Source: Trichlorobacter thiogenes (GTDB lineage: Bacteria > Desulfobacterota > Desulfuromonadia > Geobacterales > Pseudopelobacteraceae). From it: a stretch of DNA of 64,000 bases. Where the stretch lies: NCBI RefSeq assembly GCF_900167465.1, contig NZ_FUWR01000013.1:16288-80287 (forward strand), read 5' to 3'. Below are positions 3,987-36,411 of the stretch, piece after piece (position 1 is the first letter of the stretch; each line of letters opens with the position of its first letter). The notes under the pieces were generated by a model, which searched no databases, was not told the origin of the DNA, and saw only the letters and a list, made by a program, of their open reading frames with translations. A program made the position numbers and the translations under genes.

Positions 3987-4810
3987 GACGGAAAGAACTT
4001 CAGCTGCGGTCTTGAGGTTATCAAGCCCAACTCAGCTGCCAGTTGATAAAAGCATTCAAGTCCAGCCAAGTGGGCCTCATCCAGTTGATAGGTGATTGCA
4101 TTACGCCAGTAATCCGCCAATGGCTGGACACCAACCCAGGCAGCCTCCGGCGCCTGGGCAGCCAGCAGCCCGGCATCAGGTATAATCCTCTCGCGGGCCT
4201 GTTCCAGCAGCCTACTGAACTGAGTTAATGCGCCTTCTTTTCCTGCAGCTGAAGTCCGGTTAATCAGCCAGAGTGCATAGACAAAAGGCAGACCAGTCAG
4301 CTCCATCCACTCCTGTCCAAGGTCGTAACAGTAGACACCGGCACTGCCTGATGCCGCCTGCAAAGCACGATCACCGATCAACAGCAGTCCTGAAGACTGC
4401 TGTAATGCTTCCTGCCATGGCAGGGACGTTGTCTGCAAAGAACAATCGGACAGCCCCCAGCGCTTAGCCAGTAAAATATGAAGCAACACAACCGATGTTG
4501 CCGATTCACTGGTCACCAGCAACCGTTGGCCAGCCAGCTCCTCCGCCGGACGGGTGGTAAAAAAAAGCACACTTTTAACCGGACCTACAGAGCCGATACA
4601 ATGCCCCGGCAGAATGGCATATTCATCTGCATGGCGCGAGAATTCAATTGAAGAAGAAATACAAATATCAATCTCACCGTTAGCCAGCTTGGCATTCAGC
4701 GTTGCCGGCACTCCATGCACAATGGTGGTTGTCTCGCCGGGCAGTGTTTTTTCTAACTGCATAAAGAGCGGGGTGCAATTTGCGTAGTCAATCCGTCCGA
4801 TTCTCAGCAT
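3983..4810 (-). CDS. MqnA/MqnD-like (futalosine-pathway chorismate dehydratase family) periplasmic-binding-fold protein
   Basis: 275 aa. N-terminus MLRIGRIDYANCTPLF resembles the MqnA LR(I/V)GxIxYLNxxP signature. Start/stop-overlapped with both neighbours (operon). Confidence 0.5.
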   Translation of the reverse strand: MLRIGRIDYANCTPLFMQLEKTLPGETTTIVHGVPATLNAKLANGEIDICISSSIEFSRHADEYAILPGHCIGSVGPVKSVLFFTTRPAEELAGQRLLVTSESATSVVLLHILLAKRWGLSDCSLQTTSLPWQEALQQSSGLLLIGDRALQAASGSAGVYCYDLGQEWMELTGLPFVYALWLINRTSAAGKEGALTQFSRLLEQARERIIPDAGLLAAQAPEAAWVGVQPLADYWRNAITYQLDEAHLAGLECFYQLAAELGLITSRPQLKFFPS

Positions 4811-23614: not shown

Positions 23615-24904
23615 TTACAAAATAATGTGGTGGCTCTTGATTCTTGACGCTTCGTTATGATCAACACCTGTTTCGCGGGCGAATTCCATCCAGTTAGAAA
23701 CCGCCTCACCTACTTTATGGATTACCTTTTTGGCAGTCCCAATACCAAATCTGTTGGCAACGGCAAGCAAGTCCTCTCGGGTGATCCCCTTGAATTTACC
23801 GTTCACGGACATCAGATGCTGATCTGTCCACTCGCTTGCAGGGCTGTAGGCATGTGTAACGTCATAAGCCGGGGCAAGTTGCCATGATCCGAACTCTGCC
23901 ATAATGAAGGAATGGTTTTTGGTGTGATCATCACAGTTGGCAGCCATGACATTGAACGTCATACGACGGAATGCTTCCTCCATAGCCAGGTATCCAAGTC
24001 CCAGCTTGCTGATCACCATAAAATACTGAGCATAATCATGTGTTGCCTTCTGTTTGTAGTCGAGATGGGCCATAGCGCAGAGGGTAGTCATGTGGATCTT
24101 CCTGTTGCCGTCGCGGTCGAAGCGTTTGGTCATGAAGTGCGCCCGACCATTCTCCTCAATAAGCCTGCACGGTGACATGGTGATCCCTGCGTTTGTGGCC
24201 ATACGATAATAGGCCATCTCGATCCGGCCATAGTCCTGTGAACTGCCCAGCGCGAGATCTGTGCCCACACCATCGAATTTAAGCAGCCAGTGTTCAAAGC
24301 CCGGTGCAACGTCAAACTGGCCAGCGCGAATTTCGTTGGTATCCGGATTCCATGCTATTGCGGCCTTGGCGCGAGCACCTCCGGCTGATGTCCCTACCTG
24401 GATGATTTGGTTAAGAGCAGCTTCTGCCATGGCATCAGTTTGAAAATCACCGGATACAGATTGCCGGGCCACTTCAACAAGTTTAGACAGATCAATGGCC
24501 GTGCGACTGGAAGTCACTCTCGTTCTGGACGGTTTGAATTCCAGAGCGCCCATACTCCTTTTGCCCATATAGCCCAGACGGTCAAGGGCCGTGATTGAGT
24601 CCTTACTGACACCTTTTTGCGCCATCCAGGCATCGACCAGACTGTTGCCGAAATCATCCGGCAACGCATCCGACAGTAACGCAGGCAGACGTTTATAGGT
24701 AAGTTCCGGCAGAAACGGGAACACATAGGGCTCAAAACTAAGTGGCATCATAATCGGCGCCAGTTCAATGCCAAGCTTCACGAAATGCGGATAGTACGCA
24801 AAAACATAATAACCACTGCTCGGGTCAAGAACGACCGCCCCTACCCGCTTACCCCATATTTCAACTTCTATTTTATCAATCGGTATGTAAGCGGCCATGG
24901 CCAC
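23615..24904 (-). CDS. hipA: HipA-family toxin kinase
   Basis: HipA N-terminal plus kinase core (..NCDDHTKNHSF..). 429 aa. True start probably ATG 24896-24898. Confidence 0.85.
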   Translation of the reverse strand: MAMAAYIPIDKIEVEIWGKRVGAVVLDPSSGYYVFAYYPHFVKLGIELAPIMMPLSFEPYVFPFLPELTYKRLPALLSDALPDDFGNSLVDAWMAQKGVSKDSITALDRLGYMGKRSMGALEFKPSRTRVTSSRTAIDLSKLVEVARQSVSGDFQTDAMAEAALNQIIQVGTSAGGARAKAAIAWNPDTNEIRAGQFDVAPGFEHWLLKFDGVGTDLALGSSQDYGRIEMAYYRMATNAGITMSPCRLIEENGRAHFMTKRFDRDGNRKIHMTTLCAMAHLDYKQKATHDYAQYFMVISKLGLGYLAMEEAFRRMTFNVMAANCDDHTKNHSFIMAEFGSWQLAPAYDVTHAYSPASEWTDQHLMSVNGKFKGITREDLLAVANRFGIGTAKKVIHKVGEAVSNWMEFARETGVDHNEASRIKSHHIIL

Positions 24905-24906
24905 CT

Positions 24907-25254
24907 CTATTCAGAATGATCCGGCAACAGCAGTTCGTTCTTCGGTTTCAGCTTACGGGTTCTCGGCTTAAATACTTTTTGTCGTGGGGATTTCTGCGGA
25001 ATCATTTGCAGGGGGTTTACCGTGACTTTTGGCGCAAGTGTTTCCAGCCATTCTACCCGATTCAAGACCCGCAAAATTTTGATCAGGGATTTGGTCGTAG
25101 ACGTTTTTCCGGATTCGATTCGCTTTACAACATTCAGGGCGACTCCGGCTTGTTCAGAAAGAGCTTGCTGATCCATATTACGAAGGATTCTGAGATTGCG
25201 AATTTGCTGCCCCAAAACCTCTTCCCATTCTTCGGGCGTCCTGTAATTAACCAT
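24907..25254 (-). CDS. hipB: HipB-like XRE-family HTH antitoxin/regulator
   Basis: HTH QQALSEQAGVALNVVKRIESGK. Basic C-terminal tail. 2-nt gap to hipA. Confidence 0.75.
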   Translation of the reverse strand: MVNYRTPEEWEEVLGQQIRNLRILRNMDQQALSEQAGVALNVVKRIESGKTSTTKSLIKILRVLNRVEWLETLAPKVTVNPLQMIPQKSPRQKVFKPRTRKLKPKNELLLPDHSE

Positions 25255-25487
25255 AATAGCCCCTATATGATCTAATATAGAAAAACATACTTAATATAGC
25301 CTATATATAATCTACATTACTTAACTTACCATACAAAGTCCAGAAAGAATGCAACAAAACCAACATAACAGACCATATATAGTCTATTTTAATCTTTTTT
25401 ATGTATTTTATACCATATAAGAGCCATTAAAACCAAATGCAAATTCCATCCAAATCATCAAGGTCTTGATGCGGGTTGAGTAGCGGC

Positions 25488-25557
25488 CAACGGCGTACCC
25501 CCATGACCCGCCCGCCCAGGTTTTTCAGGCGGTCGGCGTCCATGGGGCTTGTTGGGA
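25488..25557. repeat. copy A of a CAACGG...GTTGGGA imperfect-palindromic repeat (attC-like candidate)
   Basis: caacggcgtacccccatgacccgcccgcc-caggtttttca-ggcggtcggcgtccatggggcttgttggga. Lies 3-prime of the SEC-C gene. Confidence 0.6.
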
Positions 25558-25666
25558 TATTTTGCAGTTTGTTCACTATTTCAAATTTGGAGACGCGGCC
25601 CCTCAGCCTCCCCGCTGATAATACGGGGAGTGTCTCCAGTTCCCCCATGGATGTCCCTATTTATTC

Positions 25667-28069
25667 TTAACGGCCATGACACTTTTTGTATTTTGCACCA
25701 CTACCGCAGGGACACGGATCATTCCGCCCCGGCTTTTTCGTATTCCCTAGGGGCATGACGTTTTTCGGCTGGTTTAGATTCACCGCCCGAGTTGGTTGAG
25801 CCATTCGCGCGGCATCTTCGTAAATGTAGGCGTTTTCTTCCGTTCGTACCGCCGGTATGCGGACCACGAAAGATTGCGCCCGATGGTAGGTTCCATTGGG
25901 ACTAACCTCCGCCACGACGCCAATGACGTTAGAGGCTTTGACGGCTAATGCAGCTGCGCTGGCCTTGTCATTCACCTTGGTCCAGTCAATTTGGTAGTCG
26001 TGATGTTGAAGCCAAACGAAAAGCGGCTTACCGTCCCCGGATAGAGTAAAGTAACGGGCGGGATTCTGGTTCAGGGTTTGGCGAAGATCGGACAGGATCT
26101 TGGCCAGATTTTTCCGCCCTTCCTCTCCTAAATCACGGATATGGCTCTCCACTGAAAGCCACCCTCGAGCTCGGGTGGCGTCAAGTACTTCAAGCAGCTT
26201 CAGCACCTCTTCCGGGAAGTCCTGCGTCGGAAATGGCCTATTTTCCCAGTCTTCCCCCTCGAAGCTCCTGTCGACGATGTCGCACATGCCATCCCAGATG
26301 AGCATATTCGCTTTGCCATCCTTCAACTGATCGGCAATTTCCTGATCGAAGCGGTTCTTTTTCAGGTACGCCCCCAGATGGTCGAACTCATCGAAGAGAT
26401 GAGCCTGGCGCATTCCTGCCACGGCTTGCCGAACCTCCATGTAGTGAGCAAACGAGCCGGGTGTGGGCAGGAACCGCTTGAGTACGAACAGGTCATCAAT
26501 GGACAGCGAAACGAAGGCATGCTTGCCAAGGAGCGGCTCAACCTGCGGCAGTACCTTGCAGTATGCCGAAAAGGGCGAGAATGACTCGACTGTCAGTCCA
26601 ATCGGCACCATCACACGGTAGTCAGAGCGGCGGACACGGCCGCATTCTTCATACTTGCCGTCGATGAGGCGGTAGAGCGGCACTTCGTCCGCAGAATTCA
26701 GGTAGCTAAAAAAGCGCTCGCACTGCTTGTACGCCTTGAGTACCAAGTCTTGCACGGACTGGGCGTGGCGGCCGAAATCAAGCGCTGGCGACGCAATGGT
26801 AGCAGCGGCTCCTGCCTTGGCTTCAACCAGGAACAGTATGTCATCGATCAGGATAAGGGTGTCGTTCTCGGACCACTGCTTGCTTGCAGGATCCTTGTAG
26901 TAGACCTCCTGGAAAACTGTGGCGCCAGGAAGTTGGTCGGCTAGAATGTCGGCGAAGGCGGCTTCACTCATCGCCTTCTGCCGATTCTCAAAGGTCTTCT
27001 TGTACTCCTGCTTTCTCTGAAGAAGGTTGTAGAGAAGCGCACGATACCCCGCGTCGCGGGTGAAGCACGGGTCGATAGCGTAGTAGTCCGATCCAACCTG
27101 AATTAAGGGTTTCTTCCGGGCAGGTAGTGTCCGGTAGGGCGTCCCCGCAAAATCACCCGCAGCGAAAAACTCGGTTTCTTCTCCGCGACAGTACGCTAAG
27201 TCAGCCAGCAGCTTCGGCGGTAGCTTCGTGTGACAGCTCACGTTGGCGATACCGCCACGAAACATGTCATTAATCGCTTGCACTGCAGCTTGCGACTGTT
27301 CTGCATTGGCCGCAGCCCACGCCTCTATGACGCCTTCCAGAGGCTTATCCTGTGCTGCAGCAAAGGCCTGTGCTTCCTCAAACTGCTTACTCATTTCCAT
27401 GATCGCGTCGGCATACCCAGAACGTGTGGAGTTAGCCATTGCCTGGAAGCCTTCCGCGATATCGGCGGCTCCGACGCCGTACACCTCTATAAGGACATCA
27501 TTGTGAGGAGCCAGAACGTAGCGGTAGAACTCTTCTTCCAAAACTTGGTAGCGATTTCCGCGCAGCATGACCCAGGTAGATTTGGCGCGGAATTCAATGT
27601 CGGCCGTGTCGGGACCGAATACGCCGTCCTTGGTATCGGCGGACGTGGCCATGGCGAAAAACATGGCCAACTCTCGCAGTTTTCTGCCAAGTTCAAACAG
27701 CTCGGTGCACTGAGCTTCGTCGAATGCCATTTCCGGAGGAGCAGCATCTGACGCAAGAACCGCGTGTACGTACTCCAACAGGAACTGGTTCTCGTTGATC
27801 AGATCATCCGGGCCGTCCTCTTCGCGTTTCTCCTCGGTGGCGCTTTGGTCTGCCATCGCGTTCATCATGTACTGGGCATAGATGTAGCCGAGCAGATCAT
27901 GCGGAGGCATGGTGACAATTAGCTCGCGCATTCGAGCTGCAATCGCTTCCATTTCTTTCAACATGGAAGCCGCAGTTTCTTTTCTTTTTATATCGTCCAT
28001 AACCAACATATCCCCGATATTTCTGGGAGGAATTCGGGACACCCCTCGGTTTTTCACATGCCGATTCAA
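25667..28069 (-). CDS. large hypothetical protein with C-terminal SEC-C metal-binding motif; possible PD-(D/E)xK nuclease core
   Basis: C-terminus GRNDPCPCGSGAKYKKCHGR (SEC-C). Mid-protein LILIDDILFLVEAKAG resembles a D...ExK nuclease motif (inference). Start ambiguous (TTG 28069 or ATG 28009). GC about 52-55%. Confidence 0.55.
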   Translation of the reverse strand: MNRHVKNRGVSRIPPRNIGDMLVMDDIKRKETAASMLKEMEAIAARMRELIVTMPPHDLLGYIYAQYMMNAMADQSATEEKREEDGPDDLINENQFLLEYVHAVLASDAAPPEMAFDEAQCTELFELGRKLRELAMFFAMATSADTKDGVFGPDTADIEFRAKSTWVMLRGNRYQVLEEEFYRYVLAPHNDVLIEVYGVGAADIAEGFQAMANSTRSGYADAIMEMSKQFEEAQAFAAAQDKPLEGVIEAWAAANAEQSQAAVQAINDMFRGGIANVSCHTKLPPKLLADLAYCRGEETEFFAAGDFAGTPYRTLPARKKPLIQVGSDYYAIDPCFTRDAGYRALLYNLLQRKQEYKKTFENRQKAMSEAAFADILADQLPGATVFQEVYYKDPASKQWSENDTLILIDDILFLVEAKAGAAATIASPALDFGRHAQSVQDLVLKAYKQCERFFSYLNSADEVPLYRLIDGKYEECGRVRRSDYRVMVPIGLTVESFSPFSAYCKVLPQVEPLLGKHAFVSLSIDDLFVLKRFLPTPGSFAHYMEVRQAVAGMRQAHLFDEFDHLGAYLKKNRFDQEIADQLKDGKANMLIWDGMCDIVDRSFEGEDWENRPFPTQDFPEEVLKLLEVLDATRARGWLSVESHIRDLGEEGRKNLAKILSDLRQTLNQNPARYFTLSGDGKPLFVWLQHHDYQIDWTKVNDKASAAALAVKASNVIGVVAEVSPNGTYHRAQSFVVRIPAVRTEENAYIYEDAARMAQPTRAVNLNQPKNVMPLGNTKKPGRNDPCPCGSGAKYKKCHGR

Positions 28070-28120
28070 TAAATACGGGGAGTACCCCTAGTTTTTCAAA
28101 AAATATATTCTCTTAGCATT

Positions 28121-28192
28121 CAACGGGATGCCCGGTTGACCCGCGCCGGGGCGATTCTCAGCCCCGGTCGGTGTCTAACCGGCTGGTTGGGA
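28121..28192. repeat. copy C of the repeat family
   Basis: caacgggatgcccggttgacccgcgccggggc-gattctca-gccccggtcggtgtctaaccggctggttggga. Stem differs from copy A by compensatory changes. Overlaps the stop of the Abi-like gene. Confidence 0.6.
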
Positions 28193-29236
28193 CGGATTTG
28201 ATTTCCTGCTCTCGTCGGAGTTTGATGGACGCAAGTCATATGGGACCCCCCCATTCTGACCAAAAGCTCCGCCGTAGCACTTTTCAAAATTAAACCTAAT
28301 GTTTTTTTGTTCTTTATACTGTAAGAACATTTCATCACTAGCTATTGCAGCACTACTGCCAGCCAACGAATAGCCATTTTCTGTAGGCTCAATAGGTAGG
28401 TGCTCAAGCATTGCGTACTCGATGAGAAGGTTTTTGAATTGGCCTCTGTCACAAACTCCATCAAGACAATTAATAAATAGCAATGCTAATTCCTTAGCAG
28501 ATAGTTGTGCCCGCAAAATGCCGGCGAACTTTCGCTTGTCAAGTTCTGTTGCCTTGTCTTTGTCGTAGTTGTCTATTAATTTTAAGGCTTGATACAAATT
28601 TCTGAAATAGTGACCAAGAATATGATTACTCTTATCTTGAATTTTCTTGTATCTCGCTAGAACTTCGTCTGGTGAGGATGTACCTGATGTTATGAAAGTA
28701 AATATTTCGTCAAAAGCCCCACGGCCTTCAACAATCGTTTTCTTTTTAATCATCGAAGCATTAAATATTTCAGCCAATGATGTCGCTGCACCAGTTTTTT
28801 CATTTAATTCTTCTATGTCAACTTTGATGTTATCTACAATCTTGTGGTGGAGATCAAGGATATTGAAAAATGTGGTTTCTACTGCTTGTCGATTTAACGC
28901 TTCTGATGTTTTTTCATATTCTACTCTTGCAAACTTTAACTCCTGTCTTTGAATTACAATCGTAGCTATTAGTCCAAAGAAGGTCAGGAATGTAAGGACA
29001 GGGTTTAGTACGCCACCAAAGAAATCACCAAATACACCGATATAATCTTTTTTTCCTATATAAAGTAAAAACAGGTCGAGGGCCAGAAGACATATAGCCG
29101 CAACCGCTGAGAAAACTAATAATTTGTATAAGAGGTTGGTTAATGCGGACTCACCAGCTTCTTCGTGAAATAGTTCATCAAATTGAGGATACTTACTATC
29201 AATCCATTTGCCAAACTTCTTGAAGAACACAATCAA
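28175..29236 (-). CDS. putative phage abortive-infection-like membrane protein (two N-terminal TM helices, GDFFGG motif)
   Basis: 353 aa, about 35% GC. N-terminal TM pair around ...GVFGDFFGGVLNPVLTFLTFFG... Family assignment (putAbiC-like) is from memory, not a search. Likely start GTG 29230 (AAGGAG 6 nt upstream). Confidence 0.45.
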   Translation of the reverse strand: MIVFFKKFGKWIDSKYPQFDELFHEEAGESALTNLLYKLLVFSAVAAICLLALDLFLLYIGKKDYIGVFGDFFGGVLNPVLTFLTFFGLIATIVIQRQELKFARVEYEKTSEALNRQAVETTFFNILDLHHKIVDNIKVDIEELNEKTGAATSLAEIFNASMIKKKTIVEGRGAFDEIFTFITSGTSSPDEVLARYKKIQDKSNHILGHYFRNLYQALKLIDNYDKDKATELDKRKFAGILRAQLSAKELALLFINCLDGVCDRGQFKNLLIEYAMLEHLPIEPTENGYSLAGSSAAIASDEMFLQYKEQKNIRFNFEKCYGGAFGQNGGVPYDLRPSNSDESRKSNPSQPAG

Positions 29237-29249
29237 CTCCTTTTTGTTG

Positions 29250-29304
29250 CAACGGCTTGGGAGAACAACGGCGTTTTTTGGCCGCTGCTTCTGCCTTGTT
29301 GGAA
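29250..29304. repeat. copy D (shorter, more degenerate) of the repeat family
   Basis: caacggcttgggagaacaacggcg-ttttttg-gccgctgcttctgccttgttggaa. Abuts the SD of the Abi-like gene. Confidence 0.45.
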
Positions 29305-29361
29305 CCTCACATTTTTTCCGCTTTCATATATATTAAATTCGGGATCAGCGAGTTTTTTGTT

Positions 29362-30006
29362 TTATTTACGAGTACTTGATCTAATACTGCTGATATCTGA
29401 GTTGTTTAAAATCGTTGTTTCATTTCCTGCAAAATATGCTACTTGATTCTGGCTTGAGGTGATTATATAGCCATCTGTACTCTTGTTGCCCGCTTTCAAA
29501 AGTATTGTTGACTTAAATAATTTGTCTGATGCGGCATTTTCTTTAAATCTTAAAGCCGCTTCTTTTCCGGATTTATCTGATGCTATTAAAGCAAATAGAA
29601 TACCTATGAATAAAACAAGAAGTGCTGTTGCTAGTATTAGCATCCGATACGAAAAACCAGAAAATTTATTGATGTCATATATGCCTTCATTGATATTTGA
29701 TTCTGATTTGTCTGACGTAAAGTTACTTGGAGTAACTTGTCTAATTTTATTGACTCTATTTATGATAAACTCTCCAATTAATGCAGTAACTAGAACTAAT
29801 TCAGCTGCTACGAAAAACCACACAACTGCTGATGCACCCATTGTTGATAATGACACAAAACCTTGAAATATAGTTTGGTCAATAGACAGCGGGAACAAAG
29901 AATCATTAATGCCAAATTCGCGGAGATAGCCTTGGTGAAAGGTAAGCCCTAGAGTGTACAGTGTTGCAGTAATCATGGAGATTATTACTGAAGCGTGTTT
30001 TAGCAT
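29362..30006 (-). CDS. hypothetical small membrane protein (3-4 TM), AT-rich
   Basis: 214 aa. AAGGAG SD 5 nt upstream of ATG 30004-30006. No recognisable domain. Confidence 0.5.
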   Translation of the reverse strand: MLKHASVIISMITATLYTLGLTFHQGYLREFGINDSLFPLSIDQTIFQGFVSLSTMGASAVVWFFVAAELVLVTALIGEFIINRVNKIRQVTPSNFTSDKSESNINEGIYDINKFSGFSYRMLILATALLVLFIGILFALIASDKSGKEAALRFKENAASDKLFKSTILLKAGNKSTDGYIITSSQNQVAYFAGNETTILNNSDISSIRSSTRK

Positions 30007-30141
30007 TATAACTCCTTAGCAAAAATGCTCATGTATATTTGGCACTTTGTTACTCATTCTTCCCGTTCAGCTAGCGAGGCCACAAAAACTTCACCTCATT
30101 TTTTCCCTGCCACCACTCCAGCCGCGCCAAGTCACGATTTT

Positions 30142-30211
30142 CAACGGGGTGCCCCCATGACCCGACCGCCCAGAATTTTAGGGCGGTCGGCGTCCATGGG
30201 GCTTGTTGGAA
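30142..30211. repeat. copy B of the repeat family
   Basis: caacggggtgcccccatgacccgaccgcc-cagaattttag-ggcggtcggcgtccatggggcttgttggaa. About 89% identical to copy A. Lies 3-prime of the GNAT gene. Confidence 0.6.
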
Positions 30212-30236
30212 CATTATTCTTTACTTCTGTCCCGTA

Positions 30237-30668
30237 TTAACCTTCGTCTACTAGAATTAGTCTCGGGTTCTCCCATATAGAGCGCCGAGGTTCACCCGTT
30301 GGCAGAAAGCCGAGATCTCGCCAGAATGGCTCAGATCTGCGAGGTGCGCATTCGACTGTAATAAACTCGGCCCCAGATGCAAACAAGCGTTTGATAGCGT
30401 CGAGAGCTAACAACTTTCCGATGCCTCGTCTGCGATGCTCCGGCTTGACTTCAAGTATGTCTATTGAAGCGCCAACGGACTTTCTATTGTGAACGACAAA
30501 TCCGACCACCTCAGTACCGGCAACAGCACAAAAAACTTCGCCTTTTTGCAGAGAATCTCTAATAATCTCGTGATTGCAGTTGAAGCCTTCACCGCTCTCG
30601 CGCTCCTCTCGTTCAAGCCATGCTAGTATTTCAATAAGATGGATATCATTCGATTTGATAATGATCAT
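30237..30668 (-). CDS. GNAT-family N-acetyltransferase
   Basis: ...ILEVKPEHRRRGIGKLLALDAIKRL... acetyl-CoA binding motif. 143 aa. Confidence 0.75.
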   Translation of the reverse strand: MIIIKSNDIHLIEILAWLEREERESGEGFNCNHEIIRDSLQKGEVFCAVAGTEVVGFVVHNRKSVGASIDILEVKPEHRRRGIGKLLALDAIKRLFASGAEFITVECAPRRSEPFWRDLGFLPTGEPRRSIWENPRLILVDEG

Positions 30669-30691
30669 TTTAAATGGTCCAACTCCTTATT

Positions 30692-30725
30692 GAGCGGTTC
30701 ACGCGCACGTGCGCGTGAACCGCTC
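30692..30725. repeat. perfect 34-bp palindrome GAGCGGTTCACGCGCAC|GTGCGCGTGAACCGCTC
   Basis: Seen in sequence. Lies between the flotillin 3-prime end and the GNAT start. Confidence 0.6.
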
Positions 30726-30749
30726 ATCCCCCCAAATGGAACAGTTCTT

Positions 30750-33251
30750 CTACCCCTTTATCTCCGGCGCAGCACCCTGCTTCTTCAGCATGGCATTCAG
30801 ATCAATCCCCGGCAGCAGTCGGGCCAGTTGCCCCATCAGGCCATCGCCAGCGGTGCCGCCGCCTGAAACAAGCACATCCGGCACAATCTTAATCTTGCCG
30901 TTTTCAATGGCGGTTGCAATCAGCTCCACAATCTTGATCTGCTTGATCGCCTCTTCGCCAATCGCCTCCTGCTGCTTGCTATAGGCCTGGGCAGTGGCTT
31001 CACCGATGGCGGCAATCTTGGAGGCCTCACCATCACCAATCGCCTTCAGCCGCTTGCCTTCACCGGTTCCTTCCAGTGCCTTGGCCTCTGCCGTACCTTC
31101 GGCCAGGGTAATCATCTCGGTCTTTTTCTGGGTTGCCACCTTTACGGCGATCTCTGAAGCAACCAGGGTGGGCTGCTGGTCGGCAGTGGCGCGCATCTTC
31201 TCCATCTCGGTCCGCTCTGCCTGGGACTTCTGCTCCATCTTGTACATTTCCTGCTGCTGCTCGGCAATGATCCGCTTGGTCTGGGTCTGCATCAGATCTT
31301 CCGGCAGTTTGATCTGGCAGATCAGCACGGATACGCATTCCACATGGTATTTTTCCAGATCAACACGGGCGCGGGTTTCAGCCTTGGTCTGTTCTTCAGA
31401 ACGGCTCTGCAGGAAGTTCATGGCCGAGGCGGTGGAGGCCTGGTTTCTGAAGGATGAATCGATCATCGGGTGGATAACATGCTGGATCAGGTTGTCGATG
31501 GAGCCAACCTTGGCCACCATGTAAGGGGCCTGATCCGGGCGGACCCGGATAACCACCTTGACCGCAACCTGAATCGGGAAGCCATCCTTTGAGATAACTG
31601 TTAACTGGTCAAAGCGGGTATCTTCCTGATCATCCCAATCAATGGTGATGTTGGTGGTATCAATGATGTAGGCCATAAAGGCCCGCCGGTTCAGGTAATA
31701 GCGTCCGGGGCCGGCAACCTCTTCCTGAATGCCGCGGAATCCCTTGGGCACCACATACTTCTCTTTGCCTTCTTCAATAGAGGCACCGGCCTGCGTCGAA
31801 CCAAGGCGTTTTTTCATCTCTTCCGTGGGGTCTTCCCCCACGTTGGAGACAATCACCCCCACCTGACCACGCTCAATCACCGCCACATCATCAATGGCCA
31901 CACTGAACATAAACGGGTTGATATAGTAGGTACCGGGACGCAGCACATCAAGCTGCGGACCACGCTGGCCCTGCTTGGTCAAAAAGGCGGAACCATCCTG
32001 ATAATCGTTATGCCCCACAACGGGGCAGGCAACATATTCCCGCTCCGGCAGCGGAATACCATCCAGGGCGGTTACCAGACCAATCTTATTGGCCTCTACA
32101 ACGGCAGCCGGCGCAATCTGGATATTAAACAGGTTCAGGTTAATCCGGTAGGTACCAGGCAGCAGCACATCAATCTGCGGACCTTTCTGGCCACCGTTTT
32201 TCAGGAACGCCTCGCCGTTTTCATAGTTGGAATGTCCGGTCACGCTCTGCGCCAGCAGACGTCCCATCGGGATCGGGGCGCCGTCCTGAGCGGTCACCAT
32301 CCCCACCTCGCCCTTGGCAATCACCACGGCAGCGGCCTTGGTAACTTTGAAGAGGTTGGGATGAATCCGGTAGACACCCGGCGGCAGGATCTCGGTCTGC
32401 GGCCCTTTCTGACCGCCGCTTGTGATGAAGTCCTGGCCGGATTGGAAGGCGTTGTGACCGGGCACCACGGTGGCAAAAATGTGCCCTGCCGGAATTGCCG
32501 CGCCGTCGGCAGACTCAACCAGACCGATCTCACCTTCACTGATCTTGGTGGCCATACTTTTGGTCACCTTGAACAGGTAGGGGTTGATCCGGTAGTTTCC
32601 GGGGGGGATGATCTCAATCTGCGGCCCTTTCTGGCCGCCGTTCTTGATAAAGGCATCACCGTTCTGGAATGATTCATGCCCTTCCACAGCCTGGGCAAAG
32701 ATCTTGCCTTCCTGAATGGCAGCACCATCAACTGACTCCACAATGCCGATCTCGGAATCCTTGATCTCAGTGACATGCCCCTTGGTCAGTTTGAACAGAT
32801 AGGGGTTAATCCGGTATTTACCCGGCGGCAGAATCTCAATCTGCGGACCCTTCTGACCACCGTTTCTGATAAAGGCCTCGCCATCCTGAAATGAGTTGTG
32901 GCCAGCCACCACCGCCGCAAAGATCCGGCCTGCCGGAATGGAAGAGCCATCCACCGATTCAATCAGGCCGATCTCGTTTTCCAGAATCTCGGTAAACATG
33001 CTCTTGGTGGCCAGATAGATAAACGGAATCAGAAAATGCAGACCTGGTCCCAGGGTCCGCGCCTGGATACCGACCTCATTCCCCAAGGCCACAACCCGCC
33101 CCTGGGGCATCTTGCTGCCAAACCAACGGCGCTCGATCAGAGCGATCTCATTTCCACCAACAATGACAACCGATTGATAAATAAGGATAACCACCGGGAT
33201 CAACAGGATCAGGTAGCCACCATTTTGAAGGGCAACATCAAGCAACGGCAT
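30750..33251 (-). CDS. flotillin-like SPFH/band-7 protein with N-terminal TM and at least five internal ~73-aa tandem repeats
   Basis: C-terminal SPFH plus flotillin coiled-coil (EAKALEGTGEGKRLKAIGDGEASKIAAIGEA...). Repeats carry GHxxFQxGxAFxxNGGQKGPQxxxLPPGxYRINP. Start moved to ATG 33249-33251 (GGAG SD); the track start was TTG 33320. Confidence 0.75.
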   Translation of the reverse strand: MPLLDVALQNGGYLILLIPVVILIYQSVVIVGGNEIALIERRWFGSKMPQGRVVALGNEVGIQARTLGPGLHFLIPFIYLATKSMFTEILENEIGLIESVDGSSIPAGRIFAAVVAGHNSFQDGEAFIRNGGQKGPQIEILPPGKYRINPYLFKLTKGHVTEIKDSEIGIVESVDGAAIQEGKIFAQAVEGHESFQNGDAFIKNGGQKGPQIEIIPPGNYRINPYLFKVTKSMATKISEGEIGLVESADGAAIPAGHIFATVVPGHNAFQSGQDFITSGGQKGPQTEILPPGVYRIHPNLFKVTKAAAVVIAKGEVGMVTAQDGAPIPMGRLLAQSVTGHSNYENGEAFLKNGGQKGPQIDVLLPGTYRINLNLFNIQIAPAAVVEANKIGLVTALDGIPLPEREYVACPVVGHNDYQDGSAFLTKQGQRGPQLDVLRPGTYYINPFMFSVAIDDVAVIERGQVGVIVSNVGEDPTEEMKKRLGSTQAGASIEEGKEKYVVPKGFRGIQEEVAGPGRYYLNRRAFMAYIIDTTNITIDWDDQEDTRFDQLTVISKDGFPIQVAVKVVIRVRPDQAPYMVAKVGSIDNLIQHVIHPMIDSSFRNQASTASAMNFLQSRSEEQTKAETRARVDLEKYHVECVSVLICQIKLPEDLMQTQTKRIIAEQQQEMYKMEQKSQAERTEMEKMRATADQQPTLVASEIAVKVATQKKTEMITLAEGTAEAKALEGTGEGKRLKAIGDGEASKIAAIGEATAQAYSKQQEAIGEEAIKQIKIVELIATAIENGKIKIVPDVLVSGGGTAGDGLMGQLARLLPGIDLNAMLKKQGAAPEIKG

Positions 33252-33505
33252 ACAGACTCCTTTCAGGCACAACAGGGGGGGATGGAGTGTTTTGCACACA
33301 ATCTGGCAGTATACCAGCAAATGGATCTTTTGCTATTTGGGAGGGTGATTTTTTAGGGATAGCAGGCCGATAGCACAGAAGCTGATCAAAAATGGTAACA
33401 GCAGCACGCGGATTAAGGGCTAAGGGACTCGGAATTTGCTGATGTACCAGTTTTTACGCTCAGATTTGGGTCAGATTTGTCATCCCTGATTGAGCAAAAC
33501 CGCAG

Positions 33506-33523: not shown

Positions 33524-33603
33524 AGAGGATTTTGTGATTGAAGGGATGGCAAAGATGGCCTGAAGATGAGATGTAAAACGGTATATTGGCAAGTTCCGAG
33601 TCC

Positions 33604-34857
33604 CTAACGTGCCATATCAATCAACAGTGCCAGATTAAGACCAATAACAATCAGGCCGGTAATCCAGAGTACGGCGGCGCCATAGGGCTTGTTGGCGTAG
33701 GTTCCCATTACTTTTTTTGACGAAGTCAGCAGAATCAGCGGGATGATGGTAAGCGGAAGTTGCAGGGAAAGGGCGATCTGGCTCCAAAGGATACCCTTGA
33801 ACGGGTCTGACAACAGCATGATGGCGGCCAGTGCCCCCAACAGCGTGATACTTAGGCCGACACGGGAGTGAGGATCATTAATATCGAACGGCTCGCTGAA
33901 GATACCGGCAAAAACAGACCCCCCTGCCATGGCGGCGGTAACAGACGATGAAAGCCCGGCAAAGAGCAGACCCAGCGCAAATACCACCGCTGAAGCCTTG
34001 CCAAAGACCGGCGCCAGAGTCACGGTGACCTGGGGAAGTTCGTTGACCACAATGCCATTTTTATAGAATACGGCGGCAGCCATAATAATCATGGCGCTGT
34101 TGATGGCCCAGCCAGCCCCCATCCCGGTCAGTGTGTCCAGAAACTCATATTTCAGCTGTTTCCTGATCACATCATCGCCATGCTCGTTCCATTGACGGCT
34201 CTGGATCACCTCTGAATGCAGGAAAATATTATGGGGCATCACAACCGCGCCCAACACCCCCATGATGACCGGTAGCGCCCCGACAGGAAAGCTCGGTGTC
34301 ACCCAGCCGGTAAAGGTCTGGACCCAGGATACGTCGGCCAGCCAGATTTCAAAGACAAAGGCCAGACCGATCAAGGAGACAAATCCCATAATCCATTTCT
34401 CAAGCCGTTGATAGTTTTTTGAGAAGAGCATCCAGGCCGAGAACAGCGCCGAGAACAGCGCGCCGACCATCAATGGCAGGCCGGTCAGCATATTGAGGCC
34501 GATGGCGGCTCCCAGCAGTTCTGCCAGCGCTGTGGCAACGCAGGCAACCATGGCACTTCCCAGCATTAAAACCCGTAGCCAGGGTTTAAAGAATTTTGAG
34601 GCTGCCTCAGAAAGACAAAGTCCGGTAACAATCCCCAGGTGGGCGGCATTATGCTGGACAACAATCAGGATAACGGTGGAAAGGGTCACCACCCAGAGCA
34701 GCTTGTAGCCAAATTGCGAACCTGCAGCCACGTTGGTGACCCAGTTGCCGGGATCAATAAAGCCGACCGTGACAAAAAAACCGGGGCCGATGTAGCGGAA
34801 CAGCTCCAGTGAAGCCAGGCGTGAGGCATGCTTGCCGATGTGGGAAAGCCAATTCAT
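33604..34857 (-). CDS. mntH: Nramp-family divalent metal (Mn2+/Fe2+) transporter
   Basis: GPGFFVTVGFIDPGNWVTNVAAGSQFGY. Start moved to MNWLSH (ATG 34855-34857), giving about 418 aa. Confidence 0.85.
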   Translation of the reverse strand: MNWLSHIGKHASRLASLELFRYIGPGFFVTVGFIDPGNWVTNVAAGSQFGYKLLWVVTLSTVILIVVQHNAAHLGIVTGLCLSEAASKFFKPWLRVLMLGSAMVACVATALAELLGAAIGLNMLTGLPLMVGALFSALFSAWMLFSKNYQRLEKWIMGFVSLIGLAFVFEIWLADVSWVQTFTGWVTPSFPVGALPVIMGVLGAVVMPHNIFLHSEVIQSRQWNEHGDDVIRKQLKYEFLDTLTGMGAGWAINSAMIIMAAAVFYKNGIVVNELPQVTVTLAPVFGKASAVVFALGLLFAGLSSSVTAAMAGGSVFAGIFSEPFDINDPHSRVGLSITLLGALAAIMLLSDPFKGILWSQIALSLQLPLTIIPLILLTSSKKVMGTYANKPYGAAVLWITGLIVIGLNLALLIDMAR

Positions 34858-35268: not shown

Positions 35269-36411
35269 CTACACCCGTTCAAAGGTCTCAAACAAGGTCT
35301 TGTAATCATCCAGCGCATAGCGGTCAGTCATGCCTGCCAGATAATCCGCCACGGTGCGCTCCACCCCGTTCTGTTCTATCCTGCGGTGGTACTTGGGGGG
35401 CAGCAGGTTGGGCCGTTTCAGGTAGGTCTCAAACAGTTTGCTCAGGACATGCTCGGCCTTGACCCGCATCTTGTCCACCTTGTGATGGCGATAAAGCTTC
35501 TCTTTCAGGAACTTCTTCAGGGCCATATTCTCCTGCTCCACCTGGGGGCTGAAATGGACCAACACCCGGTTAACCCGACGCAGGTCATCCAGGCTATTGA
35601 CACCATACTGCTGGATATTGGCCCAGGTGGTCTCGCAGATGTCAGTAATCTGCATGCCGATCAGGGCACTGACCGTACGGGCCACCAGCCGCTTGTCATC
35701 TATGGTCGGGTAGCGTTCCCGCACCCGGCTGACCATCCGCTGCCACAGCTCCACCTCTTTCAGCAGGTCCAGGGTCAGGTAGCCTGATTTGATGCCGTCA
35801 TCAATATCATGGTTGTTGTAGGCGATCTCATCGGCATAGTTAATCAACTGCCCTTCTATGGAGGGGACCACGCCGGGCAGAAATTCATCCAGAATTTTAG
35901 TAGGTACATCATGGGGTGAGGAATGTTTCAGGATCCCCTCCCGCACCTCCCAGGAAAGGTTCAGGCCATCAAATGCGGCATAGCGTTCTTCCAGTTCATT
36001 CACCACCCGGAACGACTGATAGTTATGCTCAAACCCGCCAAAACCCTGCATCAACTGATTCAGCACCTCTTCGCCGGTATGGCCGAAAGGGGTATGCCCC
36101 AGATCATGGGCCAGGGCCAACGCCTCGGTCAGGTCATCGTTCAGGCGCAGACGACGGGCAACCGATTTGCCGATCTGGGCCACCTCCAGCGAATGGGTCA
36201 GACGGGTACGGTAGTAATCACCTTCGTGGTTCAGGAAGACCTGGGTCTTGTATTCCAACCGCCGAAAAGCGGCACAGTGGATGATCCGGTCACGGTCGCG
36301 CTCAAACATGGGGCGGGGATCAGAGGATTCTTCCGGGTATTTACGCCCTTTGGAGGCAGCGCTGGTGCAGGCAAAAGGGGCTAGATCAGGACGTTCACTA
36401 TAATCAAACAT
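35269..36411 (-). CDS. dgt: dGTPase-family HD-domain triphosphohydrolase
   Basis: ...RTRLTHSLEVAQIGKSVARRL...ALAHDLGHTPFGH... 380 aa. Confidence 0.85.
   Translation of the reverse strand: MFDYSERPDLAPFACTSAASKGRKYPEESSDPRPMFERDRDRIIHCAAFRRLEYKTQVFLNHEGDYYRTRLTHSLEVAQIGKSVARRLRLNDDLTEALALAHDLGHTPFGHTGEEVLNQLMQGFGGFEHNYQSFRVVNELEERYAAFDGLNLSWEVREGILKHSSPHDVPTKILDEFLPGVVPSIEGQLINYADEIAYNNHDIDDGIKSGYLTLDLLKEVELWQRMVSRVRERYPTIDDKRLVARTVSALIGMQITDICETTWANIQQYGVNSLDDLRRVNRVLVHFSPQVEQENMALKKFLKEKLYRHHKVDKMRVKAEHVLSKLFETYLKRPNLLPPKYHRRIEQNGVERTVADYLAGMTDRYALDDYKTLFETFERV

What the first reader, a model, noticed from the sequence alone, without database searches (positions are those of the whole stretch)
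28175..30006. Two AT-rich (about 35% GC) membrane-protein cassettes, one resembling putative abortive-infection proteins
The 353-aa protein has two N-terminal TM helices bracketing a GVFGDFFGGVLNP motif, then a long coiled/helical cytosolic region. I recall this architecture from putative phage abortive-infection membrane proteins. The adjacent 214-aa protein is a 3-4 TM protein with no recognisable domain. Both have far lower GC than the host, so they were probably acquired recently. Each is followed by its own repeat copy.
Basis: partly seen in the sequence, partly recalled or inferred. Interest (0 to 1): 0.6.

Follow-up and report, generated by a model that had tools for sequence, protein, structure and literature searches.

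The report
AbiC-like phage-defence gene in integron cassettes
The two AT-rich membrane-protein genes are separate integron gene cassettes in the Trichlorobacter thiogenes chromosome; one belongs to the known AbiC/AbiP phage abortive-infection family and the other to an uncharacterised family, so this is a new example of a known kind.

Summary
Both ORFs lie on the minus strand: 353 aa (more likely 351 aa from GTG 29230) and 214 aa. Their GC is 38.5% and 34.7% (GC3 34% and 25%), against about 53% for the window. The larger protein matches Pfam putAbiC (82 bits, cut-off 22) and the PADLOC AbiC and AbiP models. It aligns with a lactococcal plasmid AbiC over both TM helices and the soluble domain. 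NCBI already names the identical protein [quoted passage not shown].

The "repeat copies" are integron attC sites. There are four co-oriented sites plus one variant, with invariant AAC...GTT boxes, strong stem covariation and bulged bases. They delimit four single-gene cassettes: GNAT, 214-aa, AbiC and an 800-aa SEC-C protein. No integrase was found in the window, so it is a CALIN-type cluster. DNA homology of the 214-aa cassette to a metagenome contig (87%) ends within about 4 nt (upstream) and at (downstream) the attC GTT boxes, with different neighbours there. AbiC homologues in Vibrio parahaemolyticus are cassettes in the chromosomal integron.

The two genes are therefore independent mobile cassettes, not a two-gene system. 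The 214-aa protein (3 TM helices plus a small Sm/SH3-like β-barrel) belongs to an undescribed family; its function is unknown. Defence cassettes in integrons have been described since 2024.

The parts
30677..30746 (-). Variant attC-like site upstream of the GNAT cassette. It has a perfect 34-nt palindrome, an R' box GTTGGAC (30683-30677), and an R'' box degenerated to CCATTTGG.
   Evidence: Sequence. 77% identical to L005 2069-2134 (Geobacteraceae MAG), with compensatory stem changes; it is also the first detected site upstream of a cassette there. The attC model does not score it in the window.
30237..30668 (-). GNAT acetyltransferase cassette ORF (143 aa), GC 47.5%.
   Evidence: Pfam Acetyltransf_1, E=6e-11. 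Composition. Bounded by the variant site and attC1.
30136..30213 (-). attC1 (78 nt), R'' TTCCAAC, R' GTTGAAA (30145-30139).
   Evidence: Covariance model 100.6 bits, E=4e-28. DNA fold with two single-base bulges in the 5' arm. Near-identical sites in four Geobacteraceae/Desulfobacterales MAGs.
29362..30006 (-). 214-aa membrane protein ORF: 3 TM helices plus a C-terminal small beta-barrel. Uncharacterised family.
   Evidence: No family hit. A profile search finds 436 cluster representatives; none of the 60 members scanned has a consistent Pfam or PHROG hit. The whole cassette (30141-29251) is 87% identical in DNA to L011 2294-3199.
29244..29306 (-). attC2 (63 nt, short type), R'' TTCCAAC, R' GTTGCAA (29253-29247). 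It travels with the 214-aa ORF.
   Evidence: Model 27.9 bits, E=1e-5. Homologous attC follows the 214-aa homologue in L011 at 3143-3206.
28175..29230 (-). AbiC/AbiP-family protein ORF (351 aa from GTG 29230; 353 aa if TTG 29236): 2 N-terminal TM helices, a long stalk helix, and a putAbiC domain at residues 203-283.
28115..28194 (-). attC3 (80 nt), R'' TCCCAAC, R' GTTGAAT (28124-28118). It overlaps the last 20 nt of the AbiC ORF.
   Evidence: Model 68.8 bits, E=2e-18. DNA fold -22.7 kcal/mol, z=-3.5, with three A bulges in the 5' arm. Similar to L002 sites 1053-1127 and 4496-4570.
25667..28069 (-). 800-aa protein with a C-terminal SEC-C motif (777 aa in the gene call). Fourth cassette, host-like GC of 54%.
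25482..25559 (-). attC4 (78 nt), R'' TCCCAAC, R' GTTGGCC (25491-25485). Last site of the array.
   Evidence: Model 93.7 bits, E=5e-26. 88% identical to attC1.

Best explanation
Window 25.5-30.7 kb is a small cluster of integron gene cassettes with no adjacent integrase (a CALIN). It sits between core genes of Trichlorobacter (Geobacter) thiogenes. Read on the minus strand, the order is: variant attC, GNAT, attC, 214-aa membrane protein, attC, AbiC-like protein, attC, 800-aa SEC-C protein, attC.

The two AT-rich genes in the finding are separate cassettes. Each is a single ORF plus its own attC, with no convincing sigma-70-type promoter in a consensus scan, and each was acquired by attC recombination.

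The 351-aa protein is a member of the AbiC/AbiP group of single-gene abortive-infection proteins. By inference from lactococcal AbiC and AbiP, its cytoplasmic alpha-helical domain is held at the inner membrane by a 2-TM hairpin. On phage infection it blocks late phage development. Proposed mechanism, not shown: the cytoplasmic domain senses a phage product or RNA and signals through the long stalk helix to the conserved Gly-rich TM2 motif, which disturbs membrane integrity or energisation. Burst size drops at a cost to the infected cell.

The 214-aa protein is an unrelated cassette of unknown function. My best guess is a membrane-embedded envelope or phage-exclusion factor with N-in, C-out topology.

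Shown here: cassette structure, family membership, foreign composition, independence of the two genes. Inferred: defence activity, mechanism, expression.
For: attC identity:
- Four co-oriented sites, found only in this 5-kb stretch of the 64-kb window.
- Across 17 aligned matches (16 distinct sites; one row is the reverse strand of attC1), the AAC/GTT core pairs are invariant. 18 of 23 stem pairs have compensatory double changes. 87.5% of cells pair, against at most 42% when the partner is slid.
- Bulged bases always lie in the 5' arm when read in ORF sense.
- Homologues in other genomes end in canonical GTTAGGC or GTTATGC.
- A Geobacteraceae MAG (L002) has five such sites, most separating single co-oriented ORFs.

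Cassette mobility:
- The 214-aa cassette is 87% identical in DNA to L011 from 4 nt inside the upstream R' box (30141) to the GTT of the downstream R' box (29251). Its neighbours there are different: Peptidase_S26 and DUF4379.
- The V. parahaemolyticus AbiC homologue P0058 sits between Vibrio attC repeats, with different neighbours in four strains.

No integrase:
- No tblastn hit at E<=10 to IntI1 anywhere in the window.
- The flanking and integrase-sized ORFs scanned are housekeeping genes.

AbiC membership: Pfam, PADLOC and PHROG hits; alignment to a lactococcal AbiC; 2-TM topology; NCBI name. Published features of AbiC and AbiP are in PMC13064643.

Defence cassettes in integrons are an established phenomenon (bioRxiv 10.1101/2024.07.02.601686; 10.1101/2024.07.02.601719).
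Against: - No experimental phage-resistance data exist for any proteobacterial or Geobacter putAbiC protein that I found. Identity to lactococcal AbiC is only 25%.
- The PADLOC AbiC match covers 180 of 306 model positions at 43 bits.
- No convincing sigma-70-type promoter was found by a consensus scan: 6 promoter-like sites against 6.8 expected. No integron Pc/intI is nearby, so expression is unproven.
- For the AbiC cassette itself, homology to the closest relative (L020/L021) covers only the ORF. Its boundaries therefore rest on the attC sites alone.
- The bulged bases are G or A on the ORF-sense strand, i.e. C or T on the recombining strand. From memory, the best-studied attC sites have T and G there.
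Confidence: 0.75

Rival explanations
1. The 214-aa protein and the AbiC-like protein form one two-gene defence system, with a membrane partner and an effector that are co-inherited and work together.
For: The genes are adjacent, co-oriented, both membrane proteins and both AT-rich.
Against: An attC site separates them. The 214-aa cassette occurs in L011/L012 with its own attC but without AbiC. AbiC homologues occur without a 214-aa homologue in L007-L010, L020-L022 and L019. Lactococcal AbiC acts as a single gene (PMC13064643).
Confidence: 0.04
2. The repeats are not recombination sites. They are REP-like intergenic palindromes or transcription terminators, and the AT-rich genes arrived by another route, such as a generic genomic island.
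For: No integrase lies in the 64-kb window. The sites are GC-rich hairpins placed after ORFs, as terminators would be. The site upstream of GNAT lacks the AAC box.
Against: Only four copies occur in 64 kb, all in one array and on one strand. The AAC/GTT boxes are invariant while the stems covary. Homology to L011 starts and stops within a few bases of the GTT boxes. The same site family forms multi-cassette arrays in relatives. No T-tracts follow the hairpins.
Confidence: 0.05
3. The putAbiC-family protein is not an abortive-infection effector in this host. It could be a silent passenger cassette, or it could serve another membrane function, for example superinfection exclusion of prophage origin or a stress function.
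For: The family name is 'putative'. Only the lactococcal proteins were tested. Homologues occur in phage genomes and PHROG families of unknown function. No promoter was detected. No fold-based functional clue emerged.
Against: Family membership is strong. The family spreads across integron arrays, plasmids and singleton chromosomal insertions, which is typical of defence genes. A substantial fraction of tested integron cassettes of unknown function have proved to be defence systems.
Confidence: 0.15

Closest known systems
Lactococcus lactis AbiC (Prf, plasmid pTN20) and the AbiC/P group
   Same: Pfam putAbiC domain. Two N-terminal TM helices followed by a helical soluble domain. Similar length: the lactococcal plasmid homologue compared here is 358 aa. 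Single-gene system on mobile DNA. Pairwise alignment over residues 36-256 (PMC13064643).
   Different: Only 25% identity. The host is Gram-negative, from the Desulfuromonadales. It is carried as an integron cassette rather than on a plasmid. It has an extra conserved C-terminal GGAFGxN motif and a non-conserved tail that runs into the attC. No phenotype is known.
Lactococcal AbiP
   Same: PADLOC AbiP model matches residues 110-271 (E=1.8e-10). It is a membrane-anchored soluble domain; the review superimposes the AbiC and AbiP soluble domains.
   Different: AbiP has one TM helix and a demonstrated RNA/ssDNA-binding domain. Nucleic-acid binding was not tested or predicted here.
putAbiC cassettes of the Vibrio parahaemolyticus sedentary chromosomal integron (P0058)
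   Same: 53% identical protein. It is a single ORF between attC sites and sits in different array positions in different strains.
   Different: The attC family differs (Vibrio ~105-nt repeats rather than 63-80-nt Geobacteraceae-type sites). It sits in a large integron-type cassette array rather than a 4-cassette integrase-less cluster.
Integron-borne defence cassettes (BRiCs; SCI 'biobank' systems) and CALINs
   Same: A compact defence-family gene packaged as an attC cassette and stacked with GNAT cassettes, with a toxin-antitoxin pair next to the array. About a third of BRiCs carry TM helices. [quoted passage not shown]
   Different: Not experimentally validated. The host is an environmental Geobacteraceae species. 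I did not find AbiC among the systems highlighted in those two papers' main text.

Membership tests
AbiC / putAbiC (Pfam PF16872; AbiC/P group) | putAbiC domain above Pfam's gathering score | tested here: met
   82 bits against a cut-off of 22, E=4.5e-23, residues 203-283, model positions 2-78 of 80. The precomputed PF16872 assignment is present on all 120 listed homologues.
AbiC / putAbiC (Pfam PF16872; AbiC/P group) | Two N-terminal transmembrane helices followed by an extra-membrane helical domain | tested here: met
   Hydropathy peaks at residues 28-61 and 70-95. AlphaFold2 helices at 28-58 and 61-133, then a domain spanning 136-303; mean pLDDT 80. The architecture is described in PMC13064643.
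AbiC / putAbiC (Pfam PF16872; AbiC/P group) | Detectable homology to a lactococcal AbiC protein and to defence-database AbiC models | tested here: met
   BLASTP gives 25% identity over 257 columns, E=1e-13, to L019:1288-2364. That protein scores 238 bits over the full length of PADLOC AbiC. The query itself scores PADLOC AbiC 7.6e-12 with partial coverage, positions 54-233 of 306.
AbiC / putAbiC (Pfam PF16872; AbiC/P group) | Confers phage resistance with an abortive phenotype (reduced major capsid protein, DNA replication unaffected) | not testable with these tools
   This needs phage challenge. Only literature on lactococcal AbiC is available.
Integron gene cassette | attC with inverse core sites (R'' ...AAC and R' GTT...) | tested here: met
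   TYCCAAC ... GTTG(A/G/C)(A/C)(A/T/C) in all four sites. The AAC/GTT pairs are invariant in 17 of 17 aligned matches. The fifth, variant site has R' GTTGGAC but lacks the AAC.
Integron gene cassette | Imperfect internal palindrome with conserved structure, variable sequence and length, and extrahelical bases | tested here: met
   Lengths 63-80 nt. 18 of 23 pairs show compensatory changes; covariation score 0.298 against 0.088 in shuffles (0 of 500 reach it). Bulged G/G, A/A/A or G in the 5' arm (and manual pairing). The identity of the bulged bases differs from the best-studied attC sites (from memory).
Integron gene cassette | One ORF, without a detectable promoter, co-oriented with and upstream of its attC | tested here: met
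   ORF map. The AbiC RBS and start lie within 23 nt of the preceding R'. Promoter-like sites are not above expectation.
Integron gene cassette | Unit of mobility bounded at the G|TT crossover points | tested here: met
   For the 214-aa cassette, homology to L011 runs from window 30141 to 29251, with unrelated flanks. For the AbiC cassette this is inconclusive, because homology to L020/L021 covers the ORF only.
Complete integron | intI integrase with attI and Pc adjacent to the first cassette | tested here: not met
Neighbouring and integrase-sized ORFs are SPFH, Nramp, dGTPase, YfbR and other housekeeping proteins. This makes it a CALIN. Whether the genome encodes IntI elsewhere was not tested.
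Integron gene cassette | IntI-catalysed excision and integration | not testable with these tools
   Requires a recombination assay.

The most novel reading that the evidence does not exclude
The 214-aa cassette protein founds an undescribed family: 436 cluster representatives at 50% identity in a profile search, and no consistent Pfam or PHROG match among 60 members scanned. Members are small inner-membrane proteins with three TM helices and a probably periplasmic Sm/SH3-like beta-barrel. The barrel carries a near-invariant Cys pair in most members. In this reading the family is a new single-gene, integron-mobilised phage-exclusion or envelope-defence factor. Two of three other genomic contexts place homologues beside defence candidates: a SLATT 2TM effector with a PDC-M49A ATPase, and PDC-S50/Schlafen-AlbA_2.
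Probability: 0.15. Interest if true: 0.55.

Novelty: new member of a known kind. Interest (0 to 1): 0.3.

Why it matters
It adds a Geobacteraceae example to the recent finding that integron cassettes carry compact anti-phage genes, and it shows an AbiC-family gene moving as a cassette. The same AbiC-type ORF is joined to three different attC families in three lineages. That bears on the open question of how cassettes are made. The adjacent 214-aa cassette marks an uncharacterised membrane-protein family that could be screened for function. None of this changes current understanding.

Tried and rejected
- Exact-sequence look-up of the 353-aa TTG-start product found nothing, because databases hold the 351-aa GTG-start product.
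- Rfam found nothing in 23-34 kb at E<=1.
- The promoter/terminator scan was not above shuffles.
- PDB sequence search with the AbiC profile gave only a chance hit at E=0.13.
- The afdb50 fold library was unavailable.
- Foldseek of the 214-aa model against viral structures gave nothing at E<=0.001.
- PHROG and Pfam scans of 60 members of the 214-aa family gave only scattered noise.
- A paper on 'Abi_C' (AbiJ/HEPN) proved irrelevant, because it concerns a different domain from AbiC.
- I looked for an HEPN-like RxxxxH motif in the conserved GHYFRNLYQ region. None is present, so I dropped that idea.
- I considered that SPFH and HipBA belong to the array. No attC follows HipA or precedes SPFH, so they are left outside.
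- I considered REP elements or terminators for the repeats and rejected them (see rival explanations).
Full report
**Observation**

Both ORFs exist on the minus strand: 28175-29236 (353 aa from TTG) and 29362-30006 (214 aa). The public protein, which is 100% identical over 100% of its length, and the gene call in an independent assembly both start at GTG 29230 and give 351 aa. An AGGAG lies 6 nt upstream of that GTG.

The composition is clearly foreign:

| Sequence | GC | GC3 |
|---|---|---|
| AbiC-like ORF | 38.5% | 34% |
| 214-aa ORF | 34.7% | 25% |
| Whole window | 53.1% | – |
| Comparison genes in the window (flanking plus long genes) | – | 55-68% |

The two 1-kb bins 28-30 kb are the only ones of 64 below 45% GC.

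**Identity of the larger protein**

- It matches Pfam putAbiC (PF16872) at 82 bits against a cut-off of 22.
- It matches PADLOC AbiC (7.6e-12) and AbiP (1.8e-10), and phrog_8999 (5e-38).
- NCBI already names the identical protein [quoted passage not shown], which also identifies the organism.
- A Lactococcus plasmid protein that matches PADLOC AbiC over its full length (238 bits) aligns with it at 25% identity, E=1e-13. The alignment covers residues 36-256, that is both TM helices and most of the soluble domain.
- Hydropathy and an AlphaFold2 model (pLDDT 80) give two N-terminal TM helices. TM2 continues as one helix to residue 133, followed by an alpha-rich domain.
- This is the architecture a 2026 review describes for AbiC: two TM helices plus an extra-membrane domain that superimposes on AbiP (PMC13064643).
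GHYFRNLYQ, LRAQLS..EL and a C-terminal GAFGxN are similarly conserved.

**What the repeats are**

The four repeats at 30136-30213, 29244-29306, 28115-28194 and 25482-25559 have a common layout when read in ORF sense:

- TYCCAAC at the 5' end
- an imperfect palindrome with single-base bulges in the 5' arm only
- GTTG(A/G/C)(A/C)(A/T/C) at the 3' end

A 21-mer from the repeat hits four Geobacteraceae/Desulfobacterales MAGs. Copies there end in the canonical attC R' boxes GTTAGGC, GTTATGC or GTTGAAT.

A covariance model built from eight copies gave these results:

- It finds exactly the four window sites, all on the minus strand.
- In MAG contig L002 it finds four further co-oriented sites that were not in the training set. 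Together with the fifth site, which was in the training set, most of them separate single co-oriented ORFs.
- In metagenome contig L011 it finds four more sites.
- Across 17 aligned matches (16 distinct sites; one row is the reverse strand of attC1), the AAC/GTT pairs never vary.
- 18 of 23 stem pairs show compensatory double changes.
- 87.5% of cells pair, against at most 42% with slid partners.

Conserved structure with variable sequence and length (63-80 nt) is the signature of integron attC sites.

A fifth, variant site lies upstream of the GNAT gene (30677-30746). It has a perfect palindrome and R' GTTGGAC, but its R'' is CCATTTGG. It has a homologue with compensatory stem changes in the same relative position in L005.

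**Proof of cassette behaviour**

DNA homology between the window and L011 (87%) runs from 30141 to 29251. It starts 4 nt inside the upstream R' box, a few bases past the G|TT crossover, and ends at the GTT of the downstream R' box. The upstream attC and both neighbouring genes are unrelated; in L011 they are Peptidase_S26 and DUF4379. The 214-aa ORF therefore travels together with its own short attC.

The closest relatives of the AbiC ORF (55-63% identity) are mostly in genera well known (from memory) for large chromosomal integrons: Vibrio, Pseudoalteromonas, Shewanella and Photobacterium. Aeromonas also appears. In V. parahaemolyticus the homologue P0058 lies between ~105-nt Vibrio attC repeats, with different neighbours in four strains. 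In Pectobacterium a homologue is a singleton chromosomal insertion. Others are on plasmids and in a few phages.

The nearest relative of the AbiC ORF (81% aa, L020/L021) shares DNA homology over the ORF only. By eye it is flanked by attC-like sites of another type, which the model does not score.

**Array layout and context**

Minus-strand order:

1. variant attC
2. GNAT
3. attC1
4. 214-aa protein
5. attC2
6. AbiC
7. attC3, which overlaps the last 20 nt of the AbiC ORF
8. 800-aa SEC-C protein
9. attC4

An HTH/HipA toxin-antitoxin pair and the core gene yfbR follow. SPFH, Nramp and dGTPase genes lie upstream.

No tyrosine recombinase is detectable in the 64-kb window. tblastn with IntI1 gives no hit at E<=10. 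Every ORF scanned is housekeeping. The element is therefore a CALIN, as that term is defined. Whether the genome encodes IntI elsewhere was not tested. The congener T. lovleyi has at least two intI genes (PMC2426708).

**The 214-aa protein**

It has no hit in Pfam, NCBIfam, PADLOC or PHROGs. A word-indexed search found only 8 relatives. A full profile search found 436 cluster representatives, 181 of them at E<=1e-10, and nearly all listed hits are full-length proteins of about 200-270 aa. The ten representatives looked up are all metagenomic; two of those clusters carry the name 'hypothetical protein' and the rest have no name. None of 60 members scanned has a consistent Pfam or PHROG match.

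A near-invariant Cys pair in the barrel of most family members, lost in this branch, suggests a periplasmic location (inference).

In two of three other contexts its homologues sit beside defence candidates: a SLATT 2TM effector with a PDC-M49A ATPase, and PDC-S50/SLFN_AlbA_2. That is a weak hint only.

**Mechanism**

Shown: the cassette structure, the family membership and the independence of the two genes.

Inferred: the 351-aa protein acts as a single-gene abortive-infection factor. In Lactococcus, AbiC lowers major capsid protein production without affecting phage DNA replication. AbiP needs both its TM anchor and an RNA-binding soluble domain.

Expression is also unproven. No promoter stands out and there is no Pc.

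**Novelty**

Defence genes as integron cassettes were described in 2024-25. putAbiC is a curated family, and this very protein is already so named. The finding is a new member of a known kind.

Three minor points of interest remain:
- the Geobacteraceae host
- the same AbiC-type ORF joined to three attC families
- the uncharacterised 214-aa family

Noticed in passing
window 25667-28069 (minus), cassette 25491-28123: An 800-aa protein (777 aa in the gene call) forms an unusually large 2.6-kb cassette with host-like GC of 54%. Only its C-terminal SEC-C metal-binding motif is recognised. PADLOC hits (PDC-S12, E2) cover that motif only.
   Followed up: partly
window 30677-30746: Variant attC-like site upstream of the first cassette: a perfect 34-nt palindrome, R' GTTGGAC, and R'' degenerated to CCATTTGG. 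A 77%-identical copy with compensatory stem changes occupies the same position in L005 (2069-2134). It could be a decayed attC or an array-boundary site.
   Followed up: partly
window 23615-25254 and 25255-25480: An HTH (HipB/MqsA-like) plus HipA toxin-antitoxin pair lies directly after the last attC. A very AT-rich 225-nt leader with repeated TATATGG-like motifs precedes it. No attC follows HipA.
   Followed up: no
window 30750-33320, repeats 31903-33008: The 856-aa SPFH/Band-7 protein carries five tandem 222-nt (74-aa) repeats N-terminal to the Band_7 domain.
   Followed up: no
window 28226-29230; L008 5860-7111; L021 ~330-1600: Related AbiC ORFs are joined to three unrelated attC families: Geobacteraceae-type here, Vibrio-type in V. 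parahaemolyticus, and a third type in a metagenome. Between the window and L020/L021, DNA homology is restricted to the ORF. This is relevant to how cassettes are generated.
   Followed up: partly
window 33423-33453 / 33575-33605: A 31-nt inverted repeat (81% complementary) with 121 nt between the arms lies in the intergenic region between the Nramp gene and the SPFH gene. Rfam found nothing here.
   Followed up: no
L004 447-5687: In a Desulfobacterales MAG, the same attC type lies among Cas1, a PRTase-domain protein and a DprA/SLOG protein. This suggests attC sites embedded in another defence-type neighbourhood.
   Followed up: no
window 35269-36411: The dGTPase near the array scores as the housekeeping equivalog (NF002326, 597 bits against a cut-off of 390). 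It falls below the cut-off for the anti-phage dGTPase model (260 against 400), so it is probably not a defence gene.
   Followed up: partly
window 25427-25648 (minus): A 73-aa ORF, called as a gene in the Logan assembly (L001 5073-5294), overlaps attC4 and has no family hit. It is probably spurious.
   Followed up: partly
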